Of a DNA stretch of 64,000 nt, positions 3,445 to 59,800 are shown piece by piece. The notes under the pieces are model-generated. The model had not been told where the DNA came from and did no database searches. It saw only the letters and a list, made by a program, of their open reading frames with translations. Numbering within the stretch: the stretch's first letter is position 1; each line of letters starts with the position of its first letter. Source of the DNA: Dehalococcoidia bacterium (GTDB taxonomy: Bacteria; Chloroflexota; Dehalococcoidia; Plut-88900); contig OZ240215.1 in assembly GCA_965197585.1 (NCBI GenBank), positions 256,001-320,000 on the forward strand, in the 5' to 3' direction. Made by a program: the position numbers and the translations under genes.

Positions 3445-5090
3445 GAACCGAAGGATGTGAGGCCGACCTGCTCCGCGCCCTAGCGTCGATGCCCTTCCTG
3501 GACCGGACGGAGATGGTTGCCGTCTCCGGCTGGTCTAGGGGGGCGGTCTACGAAGCCGTGGAAAAGCTGGATAGGGGCGGCTTCTGCGACGCCGTGACTC
3601 ACACCGCCGACTTCTCTTCCCCGACCGAGAGGTACTACCTCACGGCAGAGGGGTTGAAGCGGCTCGCCGGGGAAGAGGACATGTCTCTCGATGAAATCCT
3701 GCGCTCCCGCCCTGTCTCTGCGCAGTGGCGGCGCAGCCTGATGGAGCGTCTCGACGCCCTGGCAACCGTTTACCTTCTGGCCGGCGCCCTCGCCGCAGTC
3801 GCATATCCCATACGGTTCCGCTGGTACCGGTCCTCGTCCCTCGACGCTGCGGTCGCCCTTCCGGATGGGCGCACCGTCGGAATCGTCCGGCGAGGAAACA
3901 CGTCCGACAGGTCGGCATTCTCCAATCGCATGTGGAGGCTGCGCGGTACTGCACTTCCAGGAGCCGTGCTGATCCTCATGCCCGACCCCGTGCGGCTGAG
4001 ACACTCCCGCAGGATGCTGGAGGGCTTCCCCGTGCCAGCCTTCCTCGCCGTGGAGAGCGAGGTGGTGGCGGCGCCGGACGGACCGGTGTGGAGCCCCCAC
4101 GCCGTGCGGGCCGACATCGACCTGCGCTCGGCCCTGGAAGGGATAGATAAGATGGGGCCCCTTCCGGAAGAGGCAGCGGTGGAGCGGGCATCGCTACCCT
4201 CTGACTTCAACGTCCAGGGGCGGGGATGGGACATATCCGACTACATGCTGCCAGTCATACTAAAGGCCACCGAGAAGCGGGCCGTCGAGCTGGTGGCCGA
4301 CTGGCCCTGGATCGCTCTCTCGGAACTCGCCGGGCTGATGGGTGTCTCCCATCAGAGGGCCTCCCAGCTTGTTATCCCCCTGGAATTCTACAAGCTTGTG
4401 GTCCGCCCACGCGATGCGGGCGGACGCCTGGCCCCTACCGACCGGGGACTGGCCCTCCTAGCCCGCAGAGACCGCACCTCCGTCGGCCTGGCCAAGAGGC
4501 GGTGGAGCGCCGCCCCTCTGTTCACCGCCGACAGTTATGAGTGGACAGGCGTCACCGGCAGAAGGACACGCCAACTGCTCTGGAACATCGAACACACTGC
4601 CGCCGTCCACGACTTCCTTGCCCACCTCACAGCCCAGGCGGCTTTGTTAGGCTGGCAGGCCTCCCAGCTCGACCCACCCAAGAGGGCCTCCCGCTACTTC
4701 AAGCACGGCGACGGGATCCGCTCGGTACATCCGGATGCCTTCGGCATCCTCAGAAAAGGAGAGACAACCTGGTCTTTCTTCCTGGAGTGGGAGAGGCGAG
4801 CCGTGCGCCCGACAACCATGTCGGAGCGGCTCGCCCCCTATCTGCGCTACTACTCATCTCACAGGCCCACCGACGACCACGGCACTCGGCCCGACGTCCT
4901 GGTTGTCTTCGACGACGAGATCGCAGCGACCCACTTCCTGCGCGTGGCAAGGGAGGAGATGCAGGCGAAAGGTACGACCGTACCCCTTTGGGTCTCCCAC
5001 AGGGTCGCCACAGAGGAGCTGGGGCCGCTGGGATGCGCCTGGCGTGCCCCCGGTGACTGGGACTCACCCAGGGCCATGCCGCCGCAGTGA
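3441..5090 (+). CDS. Replication-relaxation (Replic_Relax) family relaxase, apparently two tandem domains
   Basis: GTG overlaps the VirD4 stop. C-half has HTAAVHDF, HPDAFG, FFLEWER (PD-(D/E)xK-like); N-half has a similar wHTH plus YYLTAEG. Confidence 0.7.
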   Translation: MRTEGCEADLLRALASMPFLDRTEMVAVSGWSRGAVYEAVEKLDRGGFCDAVTHTADFSSPTERYYLTAEGLKRLAGEEDMSLDEILRSRPVSAQWRRSLMERLDALATVYLLAGALAAVAYPIRFRWYRSSSLDAAVALPDGRTVGIVRRGNTSDRSAFSNRMWRLRGTALPGAVLILMPDPVRLRHSRRMLEGFPVPAFLAVESEVVAAPDGPVWSPHAVRADIDLRSALEGIDKMGPLPEEAAVERASLPSDFNVQGRGWDISDYMLPVILKATEKRAVELVADWPWIALSELAGLMGVSHQRASQLVIPLEFYKLVVRPRDAGGRLAPTDRGLALLARRDRTSVGLAKRRWSAAPLFTADSYEWTGVTGRRTRQLLWNIEHTAAVHDFLAHLTAQAALLGWQASQLDPPKRASRYFKHGDGIRSVHPDAFGILRKGETTWSFFLEWERRAVRPTTMSERLAPYLRYYSSHRPTDDHGTRPDVLVVFDDEIAATHFLRVAREEMQAKGTTVPLWVSHRVATEELGPLGCAWRAPGDWDSPRAMPPQ

Positions 5091-5158
5091 CCAATTAGTG
5101 ACGGAGGAGAATGTCGTATAGTCCTGCGCCCTCGTTCTGCGAGGGCGAGGGAATAGCC

Positions 5159-5440
5159 ATGCGTTCGCGAAACACCGACAAGCGAAAAAGTCCCCGGAAG
5201 CGTGGAGGACGGACTGTTGTCCGGCTCGATACGGCGGCCCTCTGGAGGCGGCTCACCCTGTTGAACCGTTCCCAGAACTGGCTCGCCAGGGAGGTCGGGG
5301 TCAGCCCCGGATACATGTCGATGCTGGTCAATGGGGGGCGCTCACCCTCCGGGCGCATCCGCCGCCGGATGCAAATGGCTCTCGGCGTGAACGACTTCAA
5401 CCAACTGTTTACTTTGGAGGTGACGGATGAACAGCTCTAA
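5159..5440 (+). CDS. XRE-family HTH regulator
   Basis: SQNWLAREVGVSPGYMSMLVNGGRSPS. Confidence 0.85.
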   Translation: MRSRNTDKRKSPRKRGGRTVVRLDTAALWRRLTLLNRSQNWLAREVGVSPGYMSMLVNGGRSPSGRIRRRMQMALGVNDFNQLFTLEVTDEQL

Positions 5441-7528: not shown

Positions 7529-7618
7529 TGGCGGAGGGAGTGGGATTCGAACCCACGGTACGCTGACGCGCACGCCGGTTTTCAAGACCGGTGCCTTAAA
7601 CCACTCGACCATCCCTCC
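7529..7618 (-). tRNA. tRNA-Ser (anticodon TGA)
   Basis: GGAGGGA acceptor, anticodon arm CCGGT-CTTGAAA-ACCGG, long variable arm, GGTTCGAATCC, encoded CCA; 90 nt. Confidence 0.97.
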
Positions 7619-43364: not shown

Positions 43365-43600
43365 GGTAGACCAAGCGGTACTGTAGACAGAACTTTTCAG
43401 TGGGTAGTGCCACTTTAGGAAGTGCAGTCGTAAAGGGCGAGGAAATTTTCACGGTTCAAATCCGGCTAGGTGACCCCGACCGTATAAAAGGCAGAACCTT
43501 TACGATGAATTTTGGATTGGCACTTTGAGGAACAGTGCCAGTAGGTCGCTGCTTGGTTCGAGTCCAGTTAGGTGGGCCTGGCTTGACGGTAGACAGAACT
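43365..43600. repeat. Three tandem att-like sites, GGT-N3-CC-N12-AGRCAGAAC
   Basis: Starts at 43365, 43469, 43571 (spacing 104/102); two are preceded by GGTTCRARTCC. Confidence 0.75.
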
Positions 43601-45156
43601 CCGCCGTTCAGGGCCATGTCCTCGGTTCTCTTCCCCGGTATGGGGCTGTCGTCCGGCATGGGCACCGTATACCGGACGACAGCCTTGCCGGGCATGACGA
43701 CGATCTCCTTGACGAAGGTCTCGATGAAGGCCCTGCGCTCGGTCAGCTCGCTGTCCTTCAGGAACTCGCTCATGTCCTGGGCGTAGGTAGTGATGGTCTC
43801 CACGTCGTCCAGGACCTCCCTGCGCTGGGAGAGAATCGCCCTTGCCTCTTCCGCCGAAGCCTCAAGACGCCGCTGCCGCTCCCGGTGCTCTTTGATGCGG
43901 TCTGAGGCGTCGGCCATGTCGGTGTCGGTGGTCTCCACCAAGTGCCAGATGCGGCCCAGCTTGCGCTTCACGTCCTCAAGCTCATCCTCGATGGTCTCCA
44001 GCCGCTTGCGCTGCTCGGCGGCAACGCCGTCCATCCGTTCGTCCACCACCTTTACCAGGGCGCGGATGTTGCCGTCGGTGAGGATGTTGGAGCGAATGTT
44101 GCCGACGATCATCTCCTCGAATCGCCGGGCGTTGATCCTCGGCGAATCGCAGGCTTCCTTGCCGCGCTTCATGATGGACTGGCAGACGTAGTAGGAGAAC
44201 TGGCCGCTCTTGGCCTCCTGCCCGCTGAACGCCCGGTCGCACTCCTTGCACTTGACCAGACCGCTGAGCAGGTAGGTGCTCCCGACGCGGCGGGGGTGAG
44301 TCCTCTTGGGCGCCCTTGAGCGCATCAGCCGTTTCACGCGGCGGAATTGGGCCTTGGAGACGATGCTGGGGAACGCCTTCTCGACGCGCACCGGGTCGGC
44401 CTTGTCCTTGGCGTTCGTGCCCCAGACCAGAGCGCCTGTGTAGGCTTCGTTTCTGAGTAGGAGATGGACGCCGTTCTTGGACCAGAGCTTTCCTGCGGGG
44501 CTGGCGATGCCCTCGTCGTTGAGGGCGCGGGCGATGTCCAGCATCCCCCTACCGGCCTCGGCCATGTCAAAGGCGCTCTTGACGACACGGGCCGCATCCT
44601 CGTCGGGTTCCAGGGTGGGGCGCTTCTTGGGTCCGTCCTGGACGTAGACCTTGCGGAAGCCGTAGGGCACCCTGCTGGCGACCCAGAAGCCGCGAGACGC
44701 CGCCTCGCGCATCCCCCGCGTGACCTCCTGGGCCAAATTTTCGCTGTAGAATTCGTCCACGCTCTCGATGATGCCCTCAAGCAACCTGCCGGTGGCGGTG
44801 TCCTCGGCTTGCTCGGTTATGGAGACGACGCGGACGCCCTTGCGCCTGAGCATGGACTTGAAGGCGACGGCGTGCTCTCGCTTGCGTGTGAACCGGCTGA
44901 ATTTCCAGACCAAAATCTCCTGAAAGGGAGCATTGGGCTTGGCGGCCTCGTCGATCATCTTGCGGAACTCGGGGCGGTCGGCGATGCGCCCGCTCTCGGC
45001 CTCGTCCACGTACTCGCGGGCGACGATGTAGCCGTTCTTCTCGGCGTAGTCCCTCAGCGCCCTGAGCTGGGCGGAGACGGAGAGGTCCACGTCCTGGCGG
45101 TCGCTGGACACCCTGGCGTAGAGCGCTGCGGGGGTGTAGTCGGTCTTATCATTCAT
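43456..45156 (-). CDS. Large serine recombinase (resolvase + recombinase + Zn-ribbon/coiled coil)
   Basis: YARVSS, SRFTR, YLLSGLVKCKEC, YYVC; SD AAGGAGG; 3' end reads through att-like sites. Confidence 0.95.
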   Translation of the reverse strand: MNDKTDYTPAALYARVSSDRQDVDLSVSAQLRALRDYAEKNGYIVAREYVDEAESGRIADRPEFRKMIDEAAKPNAPFQEILVWKFSRFTRKREHAVAFKSMLRRKGVRVVSITEQAEDTATGRLLEGIIESVDEFYSENLAQEVTRGMREAASRGFWVASRVPYGFRKVYVQDGPKKRPTLEPDEDAARVVKSAFDMAEAGRGMLDIARALNDEGIASPAGKLWSKNGVHLLLRNEAYTGALVWGTNAKDKADPVRVEKAFPSIVSKAQFRRVKRLMRSRAPKRTHPRRVGSTYLLSGLVKCKECDRAFSGQEAKSGQFSYYVCQSIMKRGKEACDSPRINARRFEEMIVGNIRSNILTDGNIRALVKVVDERMDGVAAEQRKRLETIEDELEDVKRKLGRIWHLVETTDTDMADASDRIKEHRERQRRLEASAEEARAILSQRREVLDDVETITTYAQDMSEFLKDSELTERRAFIETFVKEIVVMPGKAVVRYTVPMPDDSPIPGKRTEDMALNGGVLSTVKPGPPNWTRTKQRPTGTVPQSANPKFIVKVLPFIRSGSPSRI

Positions 45157-45173
45157 GGGTGCGTCCTCCTTGC

Positions 45174-45371
45174 TCATTCCTGGTCGTTCCTGCGGGCCTC
45201 GGCCCGTTGGCGGCGCTCCTGCCGCAGCCACTCCCGCTCCTCCATGTACAGCCGGATGGCCTCGCGGAGGAACTCGCTCATGGTGCGGTCATCCTCCTTG
45301 AGCATCTGCTGCACCTGCTCCGCCAACTCCGGGGGCATGGAGAAGCTGATGACCTTCGTGGTCCTGGGCAT
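45174..45371 (-). CDS. CopG/ribbon-helix-helix regulator
   Basis: KVISFSMPPEL...RTMSEFLREAIRLY. Confidence 0.85.
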   Translation of the reverse strand: MPRTTKVISFSMPPELAEQVQQMLKEDDRTMSEFLREAIRLYMEEREWLRQERRQRAEARRNDQE

Positions 45372-47671: not shown

Positions 47672-47980
47672 CTAGCCGGTGGGGGTGCTGCTGGTGCCGC
47701 CGCCGGGGGCTTCCGGCTCGGGCAGCACGTCGTCGATGTCGATTCCGGGGTCCACCACGGCGTTCATCACCAGCTCCACGACGCCGTAGGCGACCAGGGC
47801 CAGGACGATGCCCGCCAGGGCGGTCATCATTGCGCTCTTGCCGCGCTCCATCTGGTGGGGCGCTCCGCTGGCCGTCAGGTACAAGTACGCGCCGTAGATG
47901 AAGAATCCGACGCCCACCGCGCCGACGATCCCCAGCAGGATGCCCACCAGGTTCGATATGGTCTGTGTAAGGTCTTCCAT
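47672..47980 (-). CDS. TrbC/VirB2-like pilin
   Basis: GAYLYLTASGAPHQMERGKSAM..ALAG; SD GAGGAG. Confidence 0.8.
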   Translation of the reverse strand: MEDLTQTISNLVGILLGIVGAVGVGFFIYGAYLYLTASGAPHQMERGKSAMMTALAGIVLALVAYGVVELVMNAVVDPGIDIDDVLPEPEAPGGGTSSTPTG

Positions 47981-48129
47981 TCCTTGCTCCTCTCTGTTAT
48001 CGAGCGTTCCGCTCGTCTCTATCGGTCGAAGTCCGTAAGCTCCGTTAGCTGCACATCTCTCCGCCTCCGTCGTGGTATTGGTCGGCGCTCTGTCGTCCGC
48101 GCCTGTGTGATTTCGTTGTCTCGGTCGGG

Positions 48130-49722: not shown

Positions 49723-50159
49723 CTCCCTGCCTATTGCCGCGAATCAGCGATTCGCCGCTGTCCCGAAAGAGTGTGGACAACCGGGACGCCCTGCATAACT
49801 ACTTGAAGGGGTACTCATATGAGCGCCCCTATAGGCCCTTGGTTTGGACACCCCTTCCGTGATGTCATTGGGGTGTACAGAGAAAGGACTTTGGCGACAA
49901 TTTGTCGTGGGTCGTGGTTTCGTAGCTAAAACAGGGGGAAATCCCCCCCTACAGGACGTAAAAAGTGAACACTTTGTCGTAAGGGCACGTTCCGCCCGCA
50001 GGGTGCAAAACGGGCCATAGTGGTGAACAAATCGCAGCCAGGAAAATCGGCGAAATCGAGCAAAACCACCCACACTGGTTGACAAGACGCAGCCCGTGGA
50101 AATTGGGGCCGGCGTCTGGGGCCGGGCCGGGGTCGAAAGTCTGGAATGGAGGCGTGTCG

Positions 50160-50993
50160 ATGGAAGCGAGGAAGCCGGTCTTCGGCAAGAGCAACAGCGT
50201 GGAGGACATGCAGCACGTGCGGCTCATGGCGCTGCTGCAAGAGCTGGAACGGGAGCACGGGCGCAAGGGAGCGGCGGCGGTCCTGGGGCTCGACCACCGG
50301 ACGCTGGGCGCCAGCCTGGACGAGGGCGTGCTGTCCCGGCGGGTCCGGGGCGCGTTGGAGCGGGCGTTGCAGGAGGGCATCGGCTCCGCCGCCGACCGGC
50401 AGCGGGAGCGCAACGACGGTCTGGAGAAGCGGTTGGAGGAGCTGGAGGGCGTCGTCGAGGCGCAGGGGAAGGAGATGCGGGTGGGACGCAGGGCGTTGGA
50501 GGACGCAATGCGGGCCGGGCGGGAGGAGCAGGCCAGGGCGCTCAGGGAGTTGGAGACAAGGCTGGCGCAGCCCCAGGCCGACGGGTCAGCCCGGGGAGAA
50601 GCGGCGACGCCCAGGCCCGGCCAGCCCAGGGGGAGGGTCACGCTCAGGCGGGAGTTCCCCGATCTCGTGACCCGCGAGCCCGCCGAGGACGACGAGGAGG
50701 TGTTCGCCGACGCCTGGGCGCTGATCGTCGAGTGGCGGGAGCTGAAGGCCGCGCACCCCAGCCGGGGCAGGGGTCCGTCGTGGCTTGCGACCCAGGAGCG
50801 GCTGCTGACGGTGGAGCTGACGCTGCTGGAAGAGCACGGGATGACGCTGCCCCCGGAGACGTACCCGCTGCGGGGCTTCGCACGGGACGGGCAGACCGGC
50901 TGGCGAAGGACCGCGCTCTACGACACGCGTAGAGCGCGGGCAAGGTGGGAGCTTCTCCGGCGCGTGCTCACCCTGTGGCTCTGGCGGAAGTAG
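50160..50993 (+). CDS. Hypothetical protein (HTH-like N-terminus, coiled coil)
   Basis: SD GGAGG; GRKGAAAVLGLDHRTL; heptad-rich middle. Confidence 0.7.
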   Translation: MEARKPVFGKSNSVEDMQHVRLMALLQELEREHGRKGAAAVLGLDHRTLGASLDEGVLSRRVRGALERALQEGIGSAADRQRERNDGLEKRLEELEGVVEAQGKEMRVGRRALEDAMRAGREEQARALRELETRLAQPQADGSARGEAATPRPGQPRGRVTLRREFPDLVTREPAEDDEEVFADAWALIVEWRELKAAHPSRGRGPSWLATQERLLTVELTLLEEHGMTLPPETYPLRGFARDGQTGWRRTALYDTRRARARWELLRRVLTLWLWRK

Positions 50994-51220
50994 CAGGCTC
51001 CGAGTGCGGGGAGTCGCGGTCAACTTTTGTGAACACTTTGGCCGCAATCTGCGGAAGGGGGCCTGCAGGCCCTCTCATCGCGGTGGCGGGCCGGGTGATA
51101 ATGACTGCGCTGTTTGGCTTTCTCCAAGGTTTCCGACCATAGAAACCTGGGTGCGTGGTCCCTGTTGCACGGGCATGACCGGAGGATGATTCGCTCTCCC
51201 CCGGTCGCCCACGAGGGAAT

Positions 51221-51428
51221 GCTGCCGAAGCGGAGTTGACGCTGGTCCTTCGCAGGCAGCGCGGGCCGAAACGACGGAGTTGGCTTAGCCCTTCGTCCTC
51301 GGTCCAGTCCGGCGGTTGGAGTGATAAGCCCTTCGCCCGTTGGACACCCGTCCGGTGGTTGGGAGTTGATCGCTTCCGTCGCTGGACACCGGTCTGGCGT
51401 TGGGAGTCGATCGCTCTCGCCGTTGGAT
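51221..51428 (+). repeat. Array of five ~42-nt hairpins with GGAGT(Y)GRY apex
   Basis: GGAGT at 51232, 51276, 51318, 51362, 51403; the stems covary. Confidence 0.8.
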
Positions 51429-51748
51429 TGCCGGGACGGAGCGCGCCCCTTGCGCCTCGTCTTCACTTGGTCGGTCGGAGTGCGCCTGCCTGTTGCAGAC
51501 AGGTTTGTCACCCCGGCTGGCTCCTCATGCTCTGCGGCATGGCTGACACGCAGCCGGGCCGCAGCTTCGACATGCGCCGGTCTGCCGATGAAAGCAGGCT
51601 GGCCGCTTCCCGTCTCGCAGCTTCCCCACTGACGGTATCCACCCTGGGCAAGCTGCGCCTTTCTCCCATGCGCTGGCCTCCGATGAAGTCGTAGAACAGC
51701 CGCTTCCCCCATAGCAGTTCCCCCGGAGTCGATTCCCCGACGAATCAC

Positions 51749-51773
51749 CCCCGTATCAAGTACGGGGCAGGCT
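51749..51773. repeat. Short REP-like palindrome nested in a longer hairpin
   Basis: CCCCGTA-TCAAG-TACGGGG-CAGGCT. Confidence 0.6.
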
Positions 51774-51919
51774 CTGGGGCGAGCTGCGTTTTCTTCACCC
51801 CCGCTCCGTCTCCCGCGTCCGGCATCCGACCGTGGGCGGAGTGCGTCCAGCGTCAACCCATCACCACCGACTCCCGCCGTGGATGCCGCGCGGGTGTCAA
51901 CAACCGAAAGGAGGCGTCT

Positions 51920-51949
51920 ATGCACGTCAACGAGGTCCATCGCCGCTGA
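51920..51949 (+). CDS. Putative 9-aa leader peptide MHVNEVHRR
   Basis: Perfect SD AAAGGAGG at 51907-51914, 5-nt spacer, followed by a terminator-like hairpin. Confidence 0.55.
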   Translation: MHVNEVHRR

Positions 51950-51988
51950 CGGCGGGGCCTCCGGCTCTCACCACACATCCCCATCCAC

Positions 51989-52027
51989 AAGGGTCGTCTC
52001 GTTCGTTCGAGGCGGCCCTTCTTCTTT
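51989..52027 (+). terminator. Terminator/attenuator hairpin before the 4xHTH gene
   Basis: 13-bp stem AAGGGTCGTCTCG/CGAGGCGGCCCTT, then CTTCTTT. Confidence 0.6.
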
Positions 52028-52084
52028 GCCCGCAGGCGGGCGCAGGCCAAAGGCAACACAACACAACAGAAGGAGGACGGACCG

Positions 52085-53212
52085 ATGACGACGGCAACAC
52101 AGACGACTGGCACTCGGACGACGGAGACGACGACGAGGACGGCGGAGAGCGAGCTGCGGGCGGCTGCGAGGCGGCGGGGGGTCACCATGAAGGAACTCGC
52201 GGCCATGATGGGCGTGAGTGCGGGCTACCTGTCGCAGTTTGCGAACGGGCGCAGGCCGTGGACGCCGAAGATGCGCCAGAAGGTTATGGCGGTCCTGGGA
52301 GAGGTTCCCGGCCAGGGGACCGTCTACCGACAGGGCGGCGTGGTGACCGGCGAGAGCAGCTTCATCCGGGAGCGCGCCCGCGAGATGGGATTGACCATGC
52401 GGGACCTGGCCGACCGCGCCGGGGTGTCCTACGGATACATGACCCACGTCGCCCGCGGCCACGGCAACATGGGCGTCAAGGTCCAGACCCGGATCGAGTC
52501 GGCGCTCAAGGCCCCGGCGAAGGTTGCCCCGGCGCAGTGCGCCAACCGCCCGGCGAGCGTGGTGAGCGGGCAGAGCAGCTACGTCCGGGAGCGCGCCCGC
52601 GCCCTGGGCATGACCATGCGGGAGCTGGCCGAGCGGGTCGGCGTGTCCGCCAGCTACATGTCAATGGTGTCCCGGGGCCGCAGCAACATGGGCGTGAGGG
52701 TCCAGGCGCTGGTCGAGGCGGCGCTGGAGGCCGAGGCGACGGTCGCGTCAGCGCAGCTTGCCTGCGTCGACGCGAAGGCCGTGTGGGACCGCATGGACGC
52801 TCACGGGTTCAGCCAGAACGAGGTCGCCCGGCGCGCCGGCATCAGCTCCTCGTACCTCTCCCTCATCATGAACGGCAAGTCCACTCCGTCGGCGGGCGTC
52901 CTGAAGAGGCTGCACGCCGTGCTGTTCAAGCACACGAAGTCGGAGGAGCAGGTCATGCCCGCCGAGGTGAAGGTGCTGGGCTGGCGGAAGGGCGAGCGGA
53001 GCGGCATGGTGGTGCACGGCGCGGGTGGGCCGGGGCGCAGCGGCAGGCTCGGCGGTCCCGCCGTCCGGGTCGGCGGCCGGGTGCCCTGGGGCGCGAAGGC
53101 GGAGTACGCCTACCGCGCCGGGTACGACGGCGCGGGCCGGGTGTCGATGACGCCCGTCCTGATGCCGGGCTACTCCGCCATGCTCAAGCAGCCGGAGCCG
53201 GCAGCGGCCTAG
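52085..53212 (+). CDS. Regulator with four tandem XRE HTH domains and an unrecognised C-terminal domain
   Basis: TMKELA/TMRDLA/TMRELA/SQNEVA + GVSxxY repeats; SD AAGGAGG. Confidence 0.85.
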   Translation: MTTATQTTGTRTTETTTRTAESELRAAARRRGVTMKELAAMMGVSAGYLSQFANGRRPWTPKMRQKVMAVLGEVPGQGTVYRQGGVVTGESSFIRERAREMGLTMRDLADRAGVSYGYMTHVARGHGNMGVKVQTRIESALKAPAKVAPAQCANRPASVVSGQSSYVRERARALGMTMRELAERVGVSASYMSMVSRGRSNMGVRVQALVEAALEAEATVASAQLACVDAKAVWDRMDAHGFSQNEVARRAGISSSYLSLIMNGKSTPSAGVLKRLHAVLFKHTKSEEQVMPAEVKVLGWRKGERSGMVVHGAGGPGRSGRLGGPAVRVGGRVPWGAKAEYAYRAGYDGAGRVSMTPVLMPGYSAMLKQPEPAAA

Positions 53213-53852: not shown

Positions 53853-56800
53853 CTAAGGCGTCGGGTTGACGTAGTTGGACCAGCCGCTCAGGCCCGCCGC
53901 ATTGATGGCCTTCACCCGGTACACGTGCTTGACCCCCGCGGTGACGCCGGTGTCGGTGAAGGTCGTCGCCGTGCTCTCGGTGTCCGCCACGTACACCAGC
54001 AGGGCGCTCTCGCCCTCACTGGGGCGACGCCGCAGGACCTGGTAGCCCGTGATCGAGTCGTCATTGGGGGCCGTCCAGCTCAGCACGATGTGCCCGTCCG
54101 CGTTGACCGTCGCCGTCAGGCTCGTGGGCGCGGGCGGAGGGCTTTCGGGCGTCTGCTGGTCGTCTCCGGCCTCTTCCTGCTCCTCTTCCTCCGGCCCGGG
54201 GAGGGTGACCTGCACCCCTCCGGACAGCGTTGTCCCGCCCTCCGTGCAGATTCCGCCCGAACCGCACGCCTGGCCGGTCACGAGGCTGAACACGATGTCG
54301 TCGGAGCCGTCGGGGTCCAGGAAGAAGATCCAGGCGTTCTCCAGCCCGTCCTCCTCGTGCTGTCTCACGCTCCTCACCGCGGCGCCGGTCAACGACAGCG
54401 AGGGCGTCGTCTTCTCGAACGATGCCACCGCCATGCTGAAGGTGACTATCACCTGGGGCCGGTCGTCTGCGCCATTGTGGCGAGCCGATTGGAACCGGCT
54501 GTCCGGCCGTGATGCCGTGAGCGGCACCGGCGCCGCCGTCACCTCGGCAGTCGCCGCGCTGGTCAGGGTCTCCTCGTTATCGGCGTCGTCGGTGAAGGTG
54601 ACCCGCACCTGGATGGTCTTTCCCTGCTCGCTGGCGGTCAGGGTGTAGGTGGAGCCGGTGGCCCCGCCGATGTCCGACCCCCCTGCGATCCACTGGTAGC
54701 TGTAGGAGACGCTAGTCAGTCCGTCCTGGTCGGCAATGTTCGACGTATCCACCGTAAGGGTCTCTTCCACCTGGGGCGTCCCGCCGATGGTGGGCTTGCC
54801 CGTGGCCTCTCGGTTGGGCGCCGCCGTAACGGCCACGGTAGCCGCACTGGTCAGGGTCTCCTCGTTATCGGCGTCGTCGGTGAAGGTCACCCGTACCTGG
54901 ATGGTCTGTCCCTGCTCGCTGGCGGTGAGCGTGTAAGTCGAGCCGGTGGCCCCCGCGATGTCCGACCCTCCGGCCAACCACTGGTAGCTGTAGGAAACGT
55001 TGGTCAGGCCGTCCTCGTCTGTGATCGAGGACGTGTCCGCGGTGAGGGTCTGCTCAACCTGGGGAGTGCCGCTGATCGTGGGCGCGCCTGCGGCTGACGT
55101 GTTGGTGGGCGGCGCCTCGGCGGGCCCCGTTACGGTCGCAGTGGGACTGTTGGTCAGCTGCCGCGGGCTGTCTTCCCTGGTGCAGATTGCTCCTGTGGTG
55201 GTGCAGGACCGGTTGGCGGGGAGGGTGATGCCAACGTCGCTATTGTCGTCGGGTTCGACGGTGATCTCCCAAAGGTCGTTGCGTCCGTCGACTCTGCGTG
55301 CCCCGGTGACGTCGCCTTCAGAGAGGCTGAAAGCATCGTCGCGCATGTTCACGTAGCTGACGCCGACATCTTCACTGAAGAGGACGCGGAAGGTGAAGGC
55401 TGTGGAGCCGTCGTGGCTGTCGGGCAGGCCCTGGAATGCGGCCGTGAGGAGCGCCTGAGCCGCCGCCGCCACCGCCTCAGTGGCCTCGCTGGTCAGGGAT
55501 TCCTGGTTGTCCGCATCGTCGGTGAAGCTCACCTGCACCTGGAAGGTGTAGCCCTCGTCCGTCGGGGCGAGTGTGTAGGTCGAGCTCGTCTCTCCCAGTA
55601 ATACAAGGATGACGCCCGACTTGCTGGCTAACCACTGGTATCTGAAGACGGCGTTCTCCAGCCCGTCCTCGTCGTCAATGGCCGACGTGTCCGCCGTCAG
55701 CGTCTGGCCCACCTGCGGCGTGCCCGTGATGGCGGGCAGGCCCGTCGGCTCGGAATTCGGCCTGGCCGCCACGATCACCGTACTGCGGCTGGTCAGGGAC
55801 TCGGTGGTACCGCGGTCGTCGGTGAAGGAGACCCTGACCGCGAAGGTCCGTCCCTTGTCGGCTGGGGCCAGTGTGTAGGTCGAGCCGGTCTCTCCCGGCA
55901 TTTCGACGTTGATGTAGTAGCTGGTCCCGGTGTTTGCGTCGACGACCGACTGGTTGTGGAGCCACTGGTACTCGAAGGTTGCGTTGGTCAGCCCGTCGGC
56001 GTCATCGATGGCCGACGTGTCCGCCGTCAGCGTCTCGCCGACCTGGGGCGTCCCCGTGACGGCCGGAAGGCCCGTCGGCTCGGTGTTCGGCGGGGGCGCC
56101 ACGGCCACCGTGGCCTCGCTGGTCAATGTCTGCTCGTAGTCGGCGTCGTCGGTGAAAGTCACCCTGACCTGGAAGGTGGAGCCCTCGTCATCTGGGATAA
56201 GCGTGTAGGTCTGGCCCGTCTCTCCCGGTATTTCAATGCTGAGGATGTTGCTGGTTCCGGTTACGTCGTCGATGACCGTCTGGCTGGAAATCCACTGGTA
56301 GCGGTAGGCCACGCTGGTCAGCCCGTCGGGGTCGTCAATCGCCGAGGTGTCCGCCGTGAGCGTCTCGCCGACCCGGGGCGTGCCGTTGACGGAGGGAAGG
56401 CCCGTGGGCTCGGAATTCGGGGCGGCGGCCGCCACCGCCTCCGTGGCCGGGCTGGTCAGCGTCTCGCTGTACCCGCGGTCGTCGGTGAAGGAGACCTCCA
56501 CGTGGAAGGTGTGGCCCTCGTCCGCCGGGACAAGCTTGTAGGTCGAGTCCGTCTCTCCCGCATATTCATACGTGGTGGACGACTTCGTGGCGAACCACTG
56601 GTACCTGAAGACGGCGTTCTCCATCCCGTCGGCGTCCTCGATGGCCGAGGCGTCCACGGTCAGCGTCCGGCGCACCTGGGGCGTCCCGCCGATGGTGGGC
56701 TCCCCGGTTGCCAAGGTGTTTGGCGGGGGCGCCACCGCCTCCGTCGGCGCGCTGGTGCGGCTCTCCTGGTTGTGCGCATCGTCGGTGAAGGAGACCTTGA

Positions 56801-59800
56801 TCTTTATGGTCTTGCCTTCGTCCGCGAGACCCAGGGTGTACGTGGAGTCCGTCTGGTCCGCTATCTTGGAGTTATTCCGGATCCACTGGTACAGGTAGGT
56901 GTAGGACGCGTGGGTCAACCCGTCGGCGTCGGAGATACCCGACGTGTCAACGGTCAGGGTCTGGCCCACCTGGGGCGTCCCGCCGATGGTGGGACTGCCG
57001 GTGGCCCTGGTGTTGGCCGGGGTGGTCCTCACGTTGTAGGTGTCGCGCAGGATCAGCCATGCGGCGGCGGATGCGCCGTAGTCGTCGCCCGTGGCGACGT
57101 GCCGGAGGAGCACCCAGCGGTCGACGTAGTTGGCGTCCTCCGTGCTGGTGATCGTCACCGTCTGGGGCGTGTTCCAGTTGTCTGCGGTGAAGGTCAGGCT
57201 GGCGGGACTCACCGTCGCCCGGCCCGTCGGACGTTGGCCGATGGCCACGGTGACGTCGTCCGCCGGCTGGGACGCCAGCGCCACGGTGTATGTGCCGCTC
57301 TCGCCTTCATCGATCTTAAGGTCGGTCCGGCTCAGGGCCAGCCCCCCGTCGGGGCGGTCCACGTCGGCAAGGGTGGACCCGTTGGTCGCCGGCTGCCCGG
57401 TGAACGTGAGCAGATTATTGCCATATAGGTCCTCTAAGATGGACTCACCCGTCTCGACGAAGAGGTTGTCGTAGGACACGGCCACCGTCTGCCCCTGGGT
57501 GACCGGCTCCGCCATCGTCAAGGTGACCGTGTCTCCGGACACCGCGGCGTCGCTGCGCGCCGCCACTTCCCCGTCCACCCGGACGTCCAGCGCCAGGCTC
57601 TGGAGGAGGCTGGTCTGCACGCCGAAGGCTCTCAGGATGGCCGGGGACTTGATGCTCTCGTTGAAGGTGACCGCCACCTGCGCGCCGTCGGTCGAGACCT
57701 GGGCGCTGGCGAACTCGGGGCTGACCGCGTCCACCCGGTGGGCGGTGCTGCCGAGCCCAATGTGGTCCAGCACGGCGTCCCGACCCTCGGAGTCCCGTAT
57801 CCAGCTGTCCCGTACCCAGTTCTTGGTCCCGGTCTGGGTCTCGGTGACCTTTACATCCAACCTCAGGCTGCTGGGCGGGAGCAGCAGCGCGAAGGTTTCT
57901 TCGTCGCCCGGCACCACCGTGTATTCGAGGATGACCTTGTTGCCGTCGGTCCTCGCGTAGTGGGCCGTCCTGGTCTGGCCGCCCAGCTCCAGGTCCACCT
58001 CGGCGGCGTGCTTCTTTGAACTGTTGTAACTGACCGTCACGTCGTCGCTGAAGGCGACGGTCACCTGGATGGTGTCGCCAAGGCCGTAGACCCGGTCGGT
58101 GCCCGGGTTGGAGGTGAAATCGACGGACGTAACGGTGGTCGGAACGTATTGCCTCTGGCGAGTATCTCCGTCACCGCCTTCCCCGCCGGCCCTCGCCGTG
58201 GCGGGCTGTGGCGGGGCCAGCATGTGCGCGCTCATGGCGGCGTGGTTTGCCAGGTCCAGGTGTTTTCGTTGAAATTCCTTGTACGTGCGCTCCCATGTGA
58301 AGGTGACGTCGCGGCCTGATTGGGAGCGCGCGATGCCGTTGGCCGCTCTGAGCGGGAGCGTGTAGGTGGCTTCGCCCTTTCCTTTGCCGTCAACGTTGTA
58401 GATCCACCTGAGGAACAGCGTGTGGAAATCGTCGAACTGCCCTTCCCAATAGCCCTGCCAGGCCCGGGCGGCGGCCCCGGAGCCGTGGGTTCTGAATGTG
58501 GCCGTGATCCAGACCGGGTCCGTGTCTCCGGTCTTATCGGTCGTTACGTTCAGACGCCGCAGCTCCCACCCGTCTGCTGGGCCGAACTTGTCGGGTTCGT
58601 GGTCGTAGCTAAAGTGGGTCTTCCCGTAGACGATGTTGCCGTTATCATCTACTGAGGTGTATCTTCTTGATTTGAATTTCACCTCGCCTGCCCGCTCCTC
58701 TTCCCCAGCGGTCTGGCCAACCCGGTTCTGCACCTCGTCGTTGCGGATGGAGACCAATACCTGGTCCCCGGCGCTCCAGCCCGGAGCGTGGGTAAATTGC
58801 CATACCCACGGAGTAGTAGCATGCGCAAGCTGCGCGTCCGCGAAGGGCAGCTCCACACCACCGCCAAGCGTCAGCGTCCATCCGGCAACCTCGTCAGCGC
58901 TGGGGTAGGCATTTCGATCAAATGATATTTGCGTTTGGGTGGTAATGTCAGAGATCTGCTCAATCTCATACCCGATCCAGGGGTACCGGGGCTGGCCTGG
59001 AGTCCCGATTGTTACAGTTTCATCCCGCCCGGTCACGATCAGGTTGTTGGTTAAATCGCCGGCATGGCTCGCAGTAGCACGGTTGTATCCGACAAAAGCA
59101 GTGCTTCCTATTGTGTCCGTCGTCATCAGCGCCGTCCAGATGGTCCGGTAGCCGTAAGCGTTCGGCAGTGGGGGGCCGACGAGTTTCACTGAGACGGAGT
59201 CGTCCTCCGCCCAGGTCAGCCCGTGGTTGCTCCATGAGGAACGGGTGACGTTCCTGAAGAGGTCTATGCTTTGGTTGGCCTCGCTGAGGAGGAATCTCTG
59301 CCCACCGAGTTCCAGTGCGAGGTCTGGCTCGAATGTGGTTGGGAATAGCGGGGCAATTGTGAAGTTGAGGGAATCGATTGTGAGCGAGCCGGTGTCAATC
59401 TGTGCCCTGGCGAGGTTGACTACCGAGTACCTTGTTCCACGGTAAGTAAATTCGTTTGACCCAAGAGTTCCCGTGTCGGGATTGAAGCCGATTATTGTTA
59501 CGGTATTTCCCGAAACGGTCACTTGGGACCTACCCACCGTCATGGTCGTTGACAGGAAGGAGCGATCCCCGCCGGCGATGGTGTCGTACGTTGGGCAGTG
59601 TTCGGCCGGCGGGGCGGAGCACGTGACGGTGTAGCCGTCGCCGAACGTGAAGGGCACGAAGGGGCCCTCCGTCTCCGGCTCCGTGTCGTCGGTCGCAAAG
59701 GGCGACTTCGTGTTGGTCTCGGTGTACACCGCGATCTCCAGCGAGTTGCCTGTGATGATGTCATTCGTGTGCGGGGACAGGCTATCCAGGTCGGCTCCCA

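What the first reader, a model, noticed from the sequence alone, without database searches (positions are those of the whole stretch)
51235..52027. Long-range loop-target complementarity linked to a 9-aa leader peptide and terminator upstream of the 4xHTH regulator
Seen: hairpin-1 loop GTTGACGCTGG (51235-45) is the exact 11-nt complement of CCAGCGTCAAC (51847-57), which lies in the loop of a long stem (51812-51894). The core GTCAAC recurs 5 nt before the SD (51896-901), inside the mini-ORF (51925-31) and upstream at 51019. Hairpin-5 GGGAGTCG is complementary to CGACTCCC (51868-75). Next come a perfect SD, MHVNEVHRR*, a 13-bp terminator-like stem and the regulator. Established: this order resembles P1 c4-icd-ant and P4 CI-kil control. 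Inference: RNA pairing blocks leader translation and causes termination, keeping the element silent.
Basis: partly seen in the sequence, partly recalled or inferred. Interest (0 to 1): 0.85.

Follow-up and report, generated by a model that had tools for sequence, protein, structure and literature searches.

The report
Structured leader RNA of mobile element

Summary
The exact 11-nt complement 51235-45/51847-57 is not above chance alone: 216 of 1000 dinucleotide shuffles of the 1091-nt spacer give one.

The spacer 50994-52084 belongs to a conserved, multi-copy, strand-specific structured element. There are at least 119 stretches in Dehalococcoidia/Chloroflexota genomes, 0 in IMG/VR viral contigs and no Rfam 15 family.

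Order on the + strand:
- a -10-like GATAAT box
- an invariant two-hairpin 5' core
- a variable tandem hairpin array
- the 'A3' module
- optionally 'module B', a long stem that sequesters the SD
- a strong terminator (T2)
- a T-free spacer, then the next gene

Loop-target pairing is possible only where GUUGACG loops and module B co-occur. 48 of 51 type-I loci without module B keep the loops, and type-II loci keep CGUCAAC without such loops. The 9-aa ORF is the stub of a 90-141-aa gene.

Best reading: a cis-acting leader RNA gating read-through of T2 into the 4xHTH regulator (elsewhere a split primase). The P4/P1-like antisense idea remains a clade-specific possibility.

The parts
50160..50993 (+). 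'up' gene. The ORF opens at TTG 50079; the likely start is ATG 50160. Predicted as an N-terminal HTH-like part, a long helix and a C-terminal helical domain. It is the constant upstream neighbour of the leader.
   Evidence: GC3 is 0.91. A homologue ends within 400 nt upstream of the core in 88 of 99 loci that have enough flank. The AlphaFold model has pLDDT 83.9. There are only weak Cro/cII-like and XRE leads and no Pfam family above cut-off.
51019..51034 (.). Operator-like DNA direct repeat GTCAAC-TTTT-GTGAAC, upstream of the leader promoter.
   Evidence: Sequence read. GTGAAC is the commonest hexamer (75 occurrences) in the 118 nt upstream of the -10 in 114 loci.
51056..51075 (+). GC-rich palindrome after 'up' (AGGGGGCCTG/CAGGCCCTCT), probably the terminator of 'up'.
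   Evidence: pair I23. In relatives equivalent hairpins are followed by T-rich runs.
51097..51102 (+). -10-like box GATAAT, inferred promoter of the leader. The TSS is inferred near 51108-51110.
   Evidence: In the 112-sequence alignment A1 the box (G/A)ATA(A/C)T is invariant or at least 90% conserved (T12 invariant; A8, T9, A10 at 90% or more), while its flanks vary. The simple sigma-70 scan did not flag it.
51116..51178 (+). Invariant 5' core: GGCTTT, hairpin P1 (51124-51151) and hairpin P2 (GTGC 51151-54 / GCAC 51167-70).
   Evidence: Invariant columns in A1. P1 arms are pair I24. The P2 stem changes in a compensating way between subtypes (GTGC/GCAC, GGGC/GCCC, GGGT/ACCC, GGATTC/GAATCC), read. 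The P1 pattern was part of my search pattern, so its invariance is partly by construction.
51181..51199 (+). Optional small hairpin GGAGGATGATTCGCTCTCC, present in a subset of type-I loci. It resembles the type-II GGATCGAGCC..CTCTCC hairpins.
   Evidence: Alignments.
51220..51430 (+). Tandem array of five hairpins with a unit of about 41 nt.
   Evidence: Direct repeats D2 and D3 are spaced 41-42 nt apart. For H1 and H2, 27 pairs give 98.2% paired cells and four pairs show changes on both sides; G-U is the majority state at four pairs. The number of units differs between loci.
51431..51570 (+). Conserved connector with the hairpin CTGCGGCATGGCTG..CAGCCGGGCCGCAG (51532-51564).
   Evidence: pair I9. 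RNAalifold on 69 sequences finds 19 pairs in all across this hairpin and the start of A3, 8 of them with compensating pair types; G-U cells number 174 against 9 A-C cells.
51571..51790 (+). A3 module, duplicated here (51571-51662 and 51667-51790). The second copy carries a dispersed 32-nt repeat (51745-51777) in its loop and ends in GCGTTTTCTTC.
   Evidence: Repeats D4 and D9. A terminator-like site lies at 51770-51785. The module is conserved in both subtypes. Matches to the dispersed repeat are listed.
51803..51914 (+). Module B, a long imperfect stem. It comprises the anti-SD GCTCCGTCTCCC (51803-14), CCCGCG/CGCGGG, and GGCATCC (51821-27) paired with GGATGCC (51881-87). The C/A-rich apical region holds CCAGCGTCAAC (51847-57), and the base pairs with the SD AAAGGAGG (51907-14).
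   Evidence: Found in 27 loci. RNAalifold on 26 distinct sequences pairs CUCC with the GGAG of the SD around the conserved stem.
51920..51949 (+). 9-codon ORF MHVNEVHRR*, the 5' stub of a longer gene. Its 3' half and stop codon lie in a local hairpin (51932-51961).
   Evidence: Of 27 module-B loci the ORF has 9 aa in 12, 4 aa in 5, 3 aa in 2 and 90-141 aa (RRRKR plus a hydrophobic stretch) in 6; 2 have no SD and start. The local hairpin is seen.
51989..52041 (+). Terminator T2: a 13-pair stem (51989-52020), CTTCTTT, then a second hairpin GCCCGCAGGCGGGC.
   Evidence: Among 39 distinct variants, 15 pairs are predicted, 5 with compensating types; there are 91 G-U cells against 5 A-C cells. T2 forms in every masked fold.
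52042..52084 (+). CA-rich spacer without a single T, with the SD GAAGGAGG in front of the regulator. It leaves no room for a -10 box.
   Evidence: Read; conserved.
52085..53212 (+). Regulator of 375 aa with repeated Xre-type HTH domains. It can only be transcribed by read-through of T2.
   Evidence: Pfam HTH_3 at 2.9e-30 with 3 scored stretches, plus further HTH hits at residues 24-51 and 93-145. Also PHROGs and NCBIfam hits.

Best explanation
The finding lies inside a roughly 0.93-kb transcribed and highly folded 5' leader RNA, running from about 51108 to the T2 terminator at 52027. It belongs to a previously uncatalogued, multi-copy RNA family of integrative, probably conjugative, elements in Dehalococcoidia.

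The family always sits between an HTH/coiled-coil gene ('up') and the element's replication and regulation genes. These are usually a split DnaG-type primase followed by the 4xHTH regulator; in the window's clade the regulator alone remains.

The leader acts in cis as a gate. The downstream gene has no promoter of its own, so it is made only when RNA polymerase that started at the GATAAT promoter passes the strong terminator T2. I think the invariant 5' core and the tandem hairpin array are the platform, for a protein or for polymerase itself, that sets how much read-through occurs. That would be antitermination or attenuation of the nut/put/conAn or pLS20-leader type. Module B is a zipper-like long stem that hides the SD of the first small ORF.

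The 11-nt pairing between the H1 loop and the module-B loop is an optional, clade-specific extra contact, not the conserved mechanism.

Shown: conservation, strand-specific structure, the terminator, the T-free spacer, and synteny.
Inferred: the transcription start, cis action, and the antitermination mechanism.
For: 1. Conserved family. 13 of 61 related genomes match, including the window's own genome, and 9 of 11 in the window's family. A degenerate 5'-core pattern finds at least 119 stretches; all 80 listed titles are Dehalococcoidia, Tepidiformaceae or Chloroflexota MAGs. From these and the earlier loci I kept 115 distinct instances.

2. Strand-specific single-strand structure. The + strand MFE is -531.9 kcal/mol against -482.9 for the - strand. 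In H1 and H2, 98.2% of cells pair and 0 of 500 shuffles reach the observed value. G-U is the majority state at four pairs. G-U cells outnumber A-C cells 91 to 5 in T2 and 174 to 9 in the connector/A3 region.

3. Promoter-like box. (G/A)ATA(A/C)T is conserved just upstream of an invariant 5' core, while its own flanks vary.

4. T2 is a textbook GC-rich stem plus a U-rich tail, conserved with compensating changes.

5. The bases between the T2 tail and the ATG of reg, 52028-52084, contain no T, so there is no -10 box there.

6. RNAalifold on 26 module-B sequences pairs the anti-SD CUCC with the SD.

7. Synteny. 'up' is upstream in 88 of 99 loci. In 102 loci with enough flank, the first recognisable downstream gene is the primase Zn-finger protein in 48, the primase in 18, reg in 27 and none of these in 9.

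8. Weak hint of transcription. Contigs from three metatranscriptome libraries, of relatives at 85% likeness or more, lie on the leader. One 918-nt contig covers 51433-51673 and 51795-52066, and one 813-nt contig covers 51247-52044.

9. Precedent. Long leaders with attenuators and antitermination systems head conjugation operons (abstract of PMC13401043; search listing).
Against: - No transcription start, RNA end or strand has been observed. The RNA-library evidence consists of contigs of relatives, may include DNA, and the runs were selected with this very stretch.
- No antitermination factor is identified. 'up' looks like a DNA-binding HTH protein, though only from weak leads.
- The simple promoter scan did not call the GATAAT box.
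- I found no alternative structure that competes with T2, so how read-through would be regulated is unknown.
- The tandem, copy-number-variable repeats next to primase genes would also suit a DNA-level origin or priming signal.
- The covariation is mostly one-sided (G-C to G-U or A-U): only 4 of 27 pairs in H1 and H2 change on both sides, and the sequences are related to one another.
Confidence: 0.55

Rival explanations
1. One reading: P4 CI / P1 c4-like antisense control within one transcript, or in trans between co-resident copies. GUUGACG-containing hairpin loops of the array pair with GUCAAC sites in the module-B loop, just before the SD and in the first codons of the small ORF. This blocks its translation and favours termination, keeping the downstream regulator silent.
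For: - Exact 11-nt complement in the window. The global fold of 51105-52030 forms it with probability at least 0.98, and the duplex energy is -27.1 kcal/mol.
- 15 of 27 module-B loci have an 11-12-nt WC+GU complement, 7 of them an exact 11-nt one.
- L006 has a different target flank (CTTGCGTCAAC) that matches a different loop variant (GTTGACGCAAG) in its own array: 12 nt, against 7-10 nt with other arrays.
- The apical 7-mer CGTCAAC is intact in 19 of the 20 type-I module-B loci and in 3 of the 7 type-II ones (the typing is mine, from the loop lists), which may mean relaxed constraint where no partner loop exists.
- Three GTCAAC lie within 80 nt around the SD.
- P4 keeps its replication genes silent in just this way (passage in PMC4825925).
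Against: - The 11-mer alone is at chance level (216 of 1000 shuffles).
- Own-locus complementarity, 9.74 nt, barely exceeds cross-locus complementarity, 9.15 nt. The CAG-type target pairs equally well with nearly every type-I array.
- L084, L094, L116 and L131 keep the loops but have target flanks that break the extension, leaving 6-7 exact nt at the apical motif (the 9-nt match of L116 lies beside it).
- 48 of 51 type-I loci with no module B keep the loops.
- Type-II loci have module B but no GTTGACG hairpin loops, and they show no excess of upstream-downstream complements: 249 against 269 in the control.
- The ORF is a gene stub. It is separated from reg by T2 and 135 nt, so there is no translational coupling.
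- No anti-terminator alternative was found.
Confidence: 0.2
2. A single-stranded DNA element rather than an RNA: a lagging-strand or transferred-strand priming signal (sso/ssi-like), or an origin recognised by the element's own split primase, whose genes usually follow it.
For: - The strand-specific hairpins with G-T-tolerant stems are orientation-specific, as such signals are.
- The array lies directly upstream of the Zn-finger and DnaG-like primase genes in 46 of 102 loci, and a primase is the first recognisable gene in 18 more.
- Unit number varies between loci.
- The element carries a pilin-like conjugal transfer gene.
Against: - G-U (G-T) is the majority state at several stem positions, which is costly in DNA hairpins.
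- A conserved unpaired -10-like box precedes an invariant start region.
- An SD/anti-SD stem, SDs, ORF starts and a U-tailed terminator all lie on the same strand.
- The window's clade lost the primase but kept the array.
- RNA-library contigs lie on the leader (weak).
Confidence: 0.12
3. Double-stranded DNA operator or iteron array. GT(C/G)AAC/GTTGAC hexamers, in both orientations, are binding sites for the flanking HTH proteins ('up', or the 4xHTH regulator). The apparent loop-target complementarity would then simply be the same protein site in opposite orientations.
For: - GTGAAC/GTCAAC direct repeats are the commonest hexamer upstream of the promoter in 114 loci.
- The loop motif GTTGAC is the reverse complement of GTCAAC, which clusters three times in module B.
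- HTH genes lie on both sides.
Against: - This does not explain the conserved stems with one-sided and compensating changes, nor the G-U over A-C asymmetry.
- Type-II arrays have other loop motifs.
- The module-B sites do not overlap any promoter-like box.
Confidence: 0.08
4. A processed repeat RNA, as in type III toxin-antitoxin loci (ToxI-like), or another trans-acting small-RNA array. The roughly 41-nt units would be cut apart and act as individual small RNAs on a protein or on other copies of the element.
For: The layout is promoter, tandem repeats of about 41 nt with variable copy number, terminator, then gene. There are several diverged copies per genome.
Against: - The genes behind the terminator are an HTH regulator or a primase, not an endoribonuclease.
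- About 400 nt of other conserved structure lies between the array and T2.
- The units are hairpins of unequal sequence, not near-identical repeats (72-83% identity between units).
Confidence: 0.05

Closest known systems
Satellite phage P4 immunity: CI RNA with seqA and seqC in the PLE leader
   Same: An untranslated leader of an integrated element holds both a regulatory RNA determinant and complementary sites on the same strand, upstream of the replication (primase) genes. Premature termination keeps these silent (passage read in PMC4825925). The order of leader, small ORF, terminator and primase or regulator is alike.
   Different: The Rfam scan at E up to 10 gave no match to an isrK/seqA or c4-type family. 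The complementarity here is not conserved across the family. The leader is about ten times longer, with a tandem hairpin array. Processing into a small RNA is unknown.
Phage P1 immI: c4 antisense RNA, icd, ant
   Same: An RNA encoded upstream in the same operon is needed to block expression of downstream genes through sites near a small ORF (passages read in PMC8198154; the loop/RBS details are recalled, not read).
   Different: The small ORF here is a gene stub. A strong intrinsic terminator and 135 nt separate it from the next gene, so there is no translational coupling. No c4 family match was found.
pLS20 conjugation-operon leader: zipper-type attenuator cATT followed by the conAn antitermination system
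   Same: A leader several hundred nt long at the head of a mobile-element operon, containing a long imperfect stem whose flanks are complementary and extend it (abstract read, PMC13401043). Module B has such flanks (CUCC..CCCGCG / CGCGGG..GGAG). Terminators must be read through.
   Different: In module B the 3' flank is an SD, not a terminator. T2 lies 75 nt further on and showed no competing structure. No conAn-like genes were recognised. The phylum and sequences are different.
Lambda nut/boxB with N, and HK022 put RNAs (processive antitermination; recalled knowledge)
   Same: Promoter-proximal hairpins in the nascent RNA make polymerase read through terminators in front of replication genes. 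Here an invariant two-hairpin core lies directly after the promoter, followed by further hairpins with conserved tops.
   Different: No N-like protein is known here, no sequence similarity exists, and the function is untested.
Type III toxin-antitoxin loci (ToxIN; recalled knowledge)
   Same: Promoter, tandem RNA repeats of about 36-45 nt, terminator, then gene.
   Different: The downstream gene is not a ToxN/AbiQ-type nuclease. The repeats are diverged hairpins embedded in a much larger structured RNA.

Membership tests
P4 CI RNA / seqA-seqC immunity | Regulatory determinant and its complementary target(s) lie on the same strand of one leader transcript | tested here: met
   51235-45 and 51847-57 are exact complements on the + strand; the global fold pairs them.
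P4 CI RNA / seqA-seqC immunity | The complementarity is maintained, and co-varies, in relatives | tested here: not met
   Own-locus 9.74 nt against cross-locus 9.15 nt. 48 of 51 type-I loci without the target keep the loops. Type-II loci keep the target without such loops. One possible compensating case, L006.
P4 CI RNA / seqA-seqC immunity | Sequence and structure homology to the known RNA families (c4, isrK/seqA) | tested here: not met
   The Rfam 15 scan of 50500-52600 at E up to 10 lists 7 weak matches, none to these families. Scans at gathering score found none in the window or in 8 related loci. That Rfam holds these families is my recollection.
P4 CI RNA / seqA-seqC immunity | A small stable RNA is processed out of the leader | not testable with these tools
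   Only contigs of RNA libraries were available; they show no ends.
P1 c4-icd-ant | The target overlaps the RBS of a small ORF that is translationally coupled to the downstream gene | tested here: not met
   GTCAAC sites flank the SD and start, but the ORF ends at 51949 and reg starts at 52085 with terminator T2 between them. The ORF is a stub of variable length.
Intrinsic (factor-independent) terminator | GC-rich stem-loop directly followed by a U-rich tract, conserved with compensating changes | tested here: met
   13 pairs at 51989-52020 plus CTTCTTT. In 39 variants, 5 of 15 pairs show compensating types.
Leader-peptide transcription attenuator | Translation of the leader ORF switches between terminator and anti-terminator hairpins | tested here: not met
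   T2 forms unchanged when 51895-51949 or 51895-51962 is left out of the fold. The ORF is not conserved as a peptide.
pLS20-type zipper attenuator | Long imperfect stem whose upstream flank is complementary to a downstream terminator, giving an antiterminator | tested here: inconclusive
   The long stem with complementary flanks is present, but the 3' flank is the SD, not T2. Only the abstract of PMC13401043 was read.
Type III toxin-antitoxin | Tandem repeat RNA followed by a ToxN/AbiQ-type endoribonuclease gene | tested here: not met
   The downstream genes are an Xre-type regulator, a Zn-finger protein and a DnaG-like primase. PADLOC was not run.
Any Rfam 15 family | Covariance-model match at the family's gathering score | tested here: not met
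   Window: only a tRNA at 7532-7618. 8 related loci: 0 matches. Best sub-threshold match: CC2171, 28.9 bits against a gathering score of 75.

The most novel reading that the evidence does not exclude
The leader is a new class of large mobile-element RNA whose type-specific hairpin arrays form an RNA-based immunity or incompatibility code among the several related elements that share one Dehalococcoidia genome. Type I tops read GGAGUUGACG; type II tops read GGAUCGAGCC.

The arrays would act either as antisense determinants or as decoys that mimic the GT(C/G)AAC operator and titrate the element's HTH repressors. Transcription of the leader would then flip a bistable switch that opens T2 and starts replication and transfer.
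Probability: 0.12. Interest if true: 0.85.

Novelty: new variant of a known kind. Interest (0 to 1): 0.6.

Why it matters
Dehalococcoidia, many of them uncultured (several of the runs that hold this stretch are labelled sponge metagenome), have almost no characterised gene regulation or mobile-element biology.

This is a large (0.55-1 kb), abundant and clearly structured RNA family: at least 119 stretches in one scan, several copies per genome, and absent from Rfam 15. It sits at the decision point of an integrative element, between an HTH gene with operator-like repeats and the primase and regulator genes.

It offers three things:
- a defined handle (promoter box, core, array, T2) for testing how such elements stay silent or switch on;
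- a natural series of arrays with different unit numbers and two loop types for structure-function work;
- a possible new example of RNA-level control of termination outside the model phyla.

For the scan itself, it shows that a striking long-range complement can be real in the sequence yet secondary to the conserved architecture.

Tried and rejected
- **Plasmid records.** A blastn of 50900-52200 gave no match.
- **IMG/VR viral contigs.** The 5'-core pattern gave 0 matches, so I found no support for a phage origin. PHROGs gave nothing for the neighbouring ORFs except HTH and primase families.
- **Coding reading of the spacer.** ORFs 51020-51940(-) and 51236-51694(+) have no Pfam family, and neither passes the GC3 filter.
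- **Trans targets of the H1 loop.** No complement of 10 nt or more lies elsewhere in the 64-kb window; there are only scattered 9-mers.
- **Hairpin-5 GGGAGTCG with CGACTCCC.** The target strand is not conserved.
- **Type-II arrays and downstream targets.** 8-mer complements number 249 against 269 in the reversed control.
- **'up' as an RNA-binding partner.** The model is confident (pLDDT 83.9), but Foldseek against the PDB gave no match at E of 0.001 or better; the best rows are N15 Cro and lambda cII at E 1-4. The ESM Atlas gave only leads at 0.78 to XRE-type HTH clusters. The arginine-rich C-terminus as an RNA-binding motif remains my speculation.
- **RNA-library depth.** The three RNA runs show no cover over 52099-52582 and low or no cover over 'up', while the leader is covered. 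By the tool's own caveats (contigs, runs chosen with this stretch, possible DNA) I do not use the gaps as evidence. The depth spike in bin 51736-51856 is due to the dispersed repeat.
- **Literature.** Searches for Dehalococcoidia or Chloroflexota with conjugative elements, serine recombinase, and structured, non-coding or leader RNA listed nothing on this element or RNA. I claim 'not found in these two searches' only.
Full report
**What is in the sequence.** The finding sits in a 1091-nt spacer (50994-52084) between two + strand genes with high GC3. These are a 304-codon ORF that I call 'up' (50079-50993) and a 375-aa protein with repeated Xre-type HTH domains (52085-53212).

- the 11-nt complement 51235-45 / 51847-57 (also, I14)
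- GTCAAC at 51896, 51926 and 51019
- GGGAGTCG at 51402-09 against CGACTCCC at 51868-75
- the SD at 51907-14
- the ORF MHVNEVHRR* at 51920-49
- a 13-pair stem at 51989-52020 followed by CTTCTTT

The 11-mer is unremarkable by itself: 216 of 1000 dinucleotide shuffles of the spacer contain an exact inverted match of that length. Three GTCAAC within 80 nt, against 18 in 64 kb, is a real cluster.

**Context.** The window belongs to a 3.43-Mb single-contig genome of the class Dehalococcoidia, going by the record titles of relatives.

At 43456-45231(-) lies a large serine recombinase, exactly where GC rises from about 58% to 65-70%. At 47672-48100(-) lies a pilin-like conjugal-transfer protein. At 53853-62327(-) lies a 2824-aa fn3/SWM-repeat protein. 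Most other ORFs have no family. I read this as an integrative, probably conjugative, element. The 5'-core pattern has 0 matches in IMG/VR, and plasmid records give no match.

**The spacer is a conserved, multi-copy element.**
- The same genome holds a second copy, 68% identical over 15-662 of the query, 7 kb left of the window and in the opposite orientation.
- 13 of 61 related genomes match, counting the window's own genome, and 9 of 11 in the same family, several of them many times.
- A degenerate pattern from the 5' core found at least 119 stretches in species-representative genomes. Every one of the 80 listed titles is a Dehalococcoidia, Tepidiformaceae or Chloroflexota MAG.
- After dropping short flanks and identical copies I worked with 115 distinct instances.
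- No Rfam 15 family reaches its gathering score in the window or in 8 related loci. At E up to 10 the best match is CC2171 with 28.9 bits against a cut-off of 75.
- Two literature searches listed nothing on it.

**Anatomy.** From left to right on the + strand:
1. A GC-rich palindrome after 'up'.
2. Operator-like GT(C/G)AAC-N4-GTGAAC direct repeats. GTGAAC is the commonest hexamer upstream of the -10 in 114 loci.
3. A -10-like box (G/A)ATA(A/C)T that is conserved while its flanks vary.
4. An invariant 5' core with two hairpins.
5. A tandem array of hairpins with a unit of about 41 nt, whose number differs between loci.
6. A connector and the 'A3' module. A3 is duplicated in the window, and the second copy carries a dispersed 32-nt repeat.
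7. In 27 loci, 'module B'. This is a long imperfect stem (GGCAUCC/GGAUGCC, CCCGCG/CGCGGG) whose base pairs an anti-SD CUCC with the SD. RNAalifold on 26 distinct sequences gives this pairing. Its C/A-rich apical region carries CGUCAAC.
8. A small ORF.
9. Terminator T2, followed by a second hairpin.
10. A CA-rich, T-free spacer with the SD of the next gene.

Two array types exist. In type I (about 70 loci) the hairpin tops read GGAGUUGACG(C/U)UGGUCC or GGAGUUGAUCGCUUC. In type II (about 42 loci) they read GGAUCGAGCC / GGAUUGAGCC.

**The structure is real and belongs to the + strand.**
- For hairpins 1 and 2 (68 type-I sequences, 58 distinct) 98.2% of 1565 pair cells are standard pairs, against 32-57% with slid partners. 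0 of 500 column shuffles reach the observed pairing or covariation score, and 4 of 27 pairs change on both sides.
- G-U is the majority state at four pairs, for example GU 47 / GC 18 / AU 3.
- In T2 (39 variants) G-U cells outnumber A-C cells 91 to 5. In the connector/A3 region (69 sequences) they do so 174 to 9. Compensating pair types occur at 5 of 15 and 8 of 19 pairs.
- The + strand folds 49 kcal/mol better than the - strand.
- With the -10 box, SDs, an anti-SD stem and a U-tailed terminator all on this strand, RNA is the more natural reading, though single-stranded DNA is not excluded.
- Contigs from three metatranscriptome libraries, of relatives, lie on the leader. One of 918 nt reaches from 51433 past T2 to 52066. 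This is only a weak hint, because the contigs show no strand or ends, may derive from DNA, and the runs were picked with this stretch.

**Test of the loop-target idea.** The pairing is thermodynamically attractive in the window. A global fold of 51105-52030 forms it with probability at least 0.98, and the duplex energy is -27.1 kcal/mol. Across the family it does not behave like a conserved interaction.

1. Among the 27 module-B loci, 15 have an 11-12-nt WC+GU complement, and 7 of those an exact 11-nt one. L084, L094, L116 and L131 keep GUUGACG loops but have target flanks (UUU, GUU) that leave only 6-7 exact pairs at the apical motif. Type-II loci (L029, L039, L041, L042, L050, L059, L143) have 6-7.
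2. The longest own-locus complement averages 9.74 nt against 9.15 nt across loci, because the CAG-type target fits nearly any type-I array. L006 is the single case that looks compensatory: 12 nt with its own H2 loop variant GCAAG against 7-10 nt elsewhere. That loop variant also occurs in loci without module B.
3. 48 of 51 type-I loci without module B keep TTGACG loops, and only 7 of 51 have CGTCAA in the next 650 nt.
4. Type-II loci show no excess of upstream-downstream complements: 249 against 269 in the control.

In favour, the apical 7-mer is intact in 19 of the 20 type-I module-B loci but in only 3 of the 7 type-II ones (the typing is mine, from the loop lists). Two independent flank/loop matches among roughly six flank variants is also somewhat more than I would expect; this is my rough estimate, about 2 in 100, and it is not phylogeny-corrected.

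I reject it as the family's conserved mechanism.

**The mini-ORF.** Behind the same SD and AUG-CAC the ORF has:
- 9 codons in 12 of 27 loci
- 4 codons in 5
- 3 codons in 2
- 90-141 codons in 6, encoding a protein with RRRKR and a hydrophobic stretch
- no SD and start at all in 2

The nine-codon copies differ by 5 non-synonymous changes and 1 synonymous change. It is the stub of a gene, truncated in different ways, not a conserved leader peptide. Folding with the ORF region masked leaves T2 intact, so I see no classical attenuator switch.

**What lies downstream.** In 102 loci with enough flank, the first recognisable gene after the leader is:
- a 160-aa CHC2-like Zn-finger protein with a membrane anchor in 48
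- a DnaG-like primase in 18
- the 4xHTH regulator in 27, within 1300 nt in 20 of them
- none of these in 9

46 loci have the Zn-finger protein, then T2, then the primase. The window's clade has lost the primase genes. T2, the SD and the first 20 or so codons of its regulator align with the start of the primase gene of the paralogous copy. 'up' precedes the leader in 88 of 99 loci. Its model (pLDDT 83.9) is all-helical, with an N-terminal part that only weakly resembles Cro/cII-type HTH domains.

**How it most likely works.** The T-free bases between the T2 tail and the regulator's start (52028-52084) leave no room for a promoter. The regulator here, and the primase elsewhere, can therefore be expressed only by read-through of T2 from the upstream GATAAT promoter.

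The promoter is itself flanked by operator-like repeats and an HTH gene. This is the layout of an early or immunity region, in which a nascent leader RNA decides whether polymerase reaches the replication genes. Known examples are P4 (passage in PMC4825925), lambda and HK022 (recalled), and the pLS20 conjugation operon with its 456-nt leader attenuator and antitermination system (abstract of PMC13401043).

I commit to a cis-acting leader RNA whose invariant core and hairpin array set T2 read-through, with module B hiding the SD of the first ORF. My confidence is 0.55. The structure, terminator, spacer and synteny are shown. The transcription start, cis action and antitermination are inferred.

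**Novelty and verdict.** The kind of system, RNA-level control of termination in the early operon of a mobile element, is known. The RNA family, its size, its variable hairpin array with two loop types, and its phylum are new as far as Rfam 15 and my two searches show. I rate it a new variant of a known kind, with interest 0.6.

Noticed in passing
window 51745-51777: A dispersed repeat of about 32 nt, a small hairpin, is inserted in the loop of the second A3 copy. It has 90-100% matches at many places in genomes of several families of the class, and it causes a depth spike in all four laid runs. It looks like a REP/MITE-type element.
   Followed up: partly
window 51019-51034, and the equivalent places in 114 loci: Direct repeats GT(C/G)AAC-N4-GTGAAC lie 60-90 nt upstream of the leader's -10-like box. 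GTGAAC is the commonest hexamer there (75 occurrences). This is a likely operator for one of the flanking HTH proteins.
   Followed up: partly
L032 (G000:C1:244000-256000), 3958-5385 on the - strand: A second, 68%-identical copy of the leader lies in the same genome, 7 kb left of the window and in opposite orientation. It is followed by a 163-aa CHC2-like Zn-finger protein with a membrane anchor, T2, and a 460-aa DnaG-like primase, which together look like a split primase.
   Followed up: partly
window 52009-52147 against L032 4100-3958: T2, the SD and the first 20 or so codons of the regulator align (75%) with the start of the primase gene of the paralog. This suggests a deletion fused the primase 5' end to the regulator gene in the window's clade.
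   Followed up: partly
window 52087-52135: The regulator begins with a threonine-rich run encoded by an imperfect 15-nt tandem repeat (3.5 copies).
   Followed up: no
window 53853-62327 (-): A 2824-aa ORF with a C-terminal fibronectin type III domain and a SWM repeat. It is possibly a surface or adhesion protein of the element.
   Followed up: no
window 1-64000: GC is 54-62% between about 5 and 44 kb and 65-70% on both sides. The two high-GC flanks each carry a copy of the leader-containing element type. A tRNA of 87 nt lies at 7532-7618 (-), near the left GC step.
   Followed up: no
window 47672-48100 (-): A small ORF matches T4SS pilin (Pfam PF18895, 1.9e-11). It also matches the Mbov_0395 pilin-like conjugal transfer family at 37.1 bits, just under that family's cut-off of 40. 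It is the only recognisable conjugation gene near the leader.
   Followed up: no
L039 (G011:C1:101500-105800), inside module B: One relative carries an insertion of about 50 nt of CTGTCTGCC/GCAGGCAGG-type simple repeats in the 5' arm of the module-B stem, so the stem tolerates large insertions.
   Followed up: no
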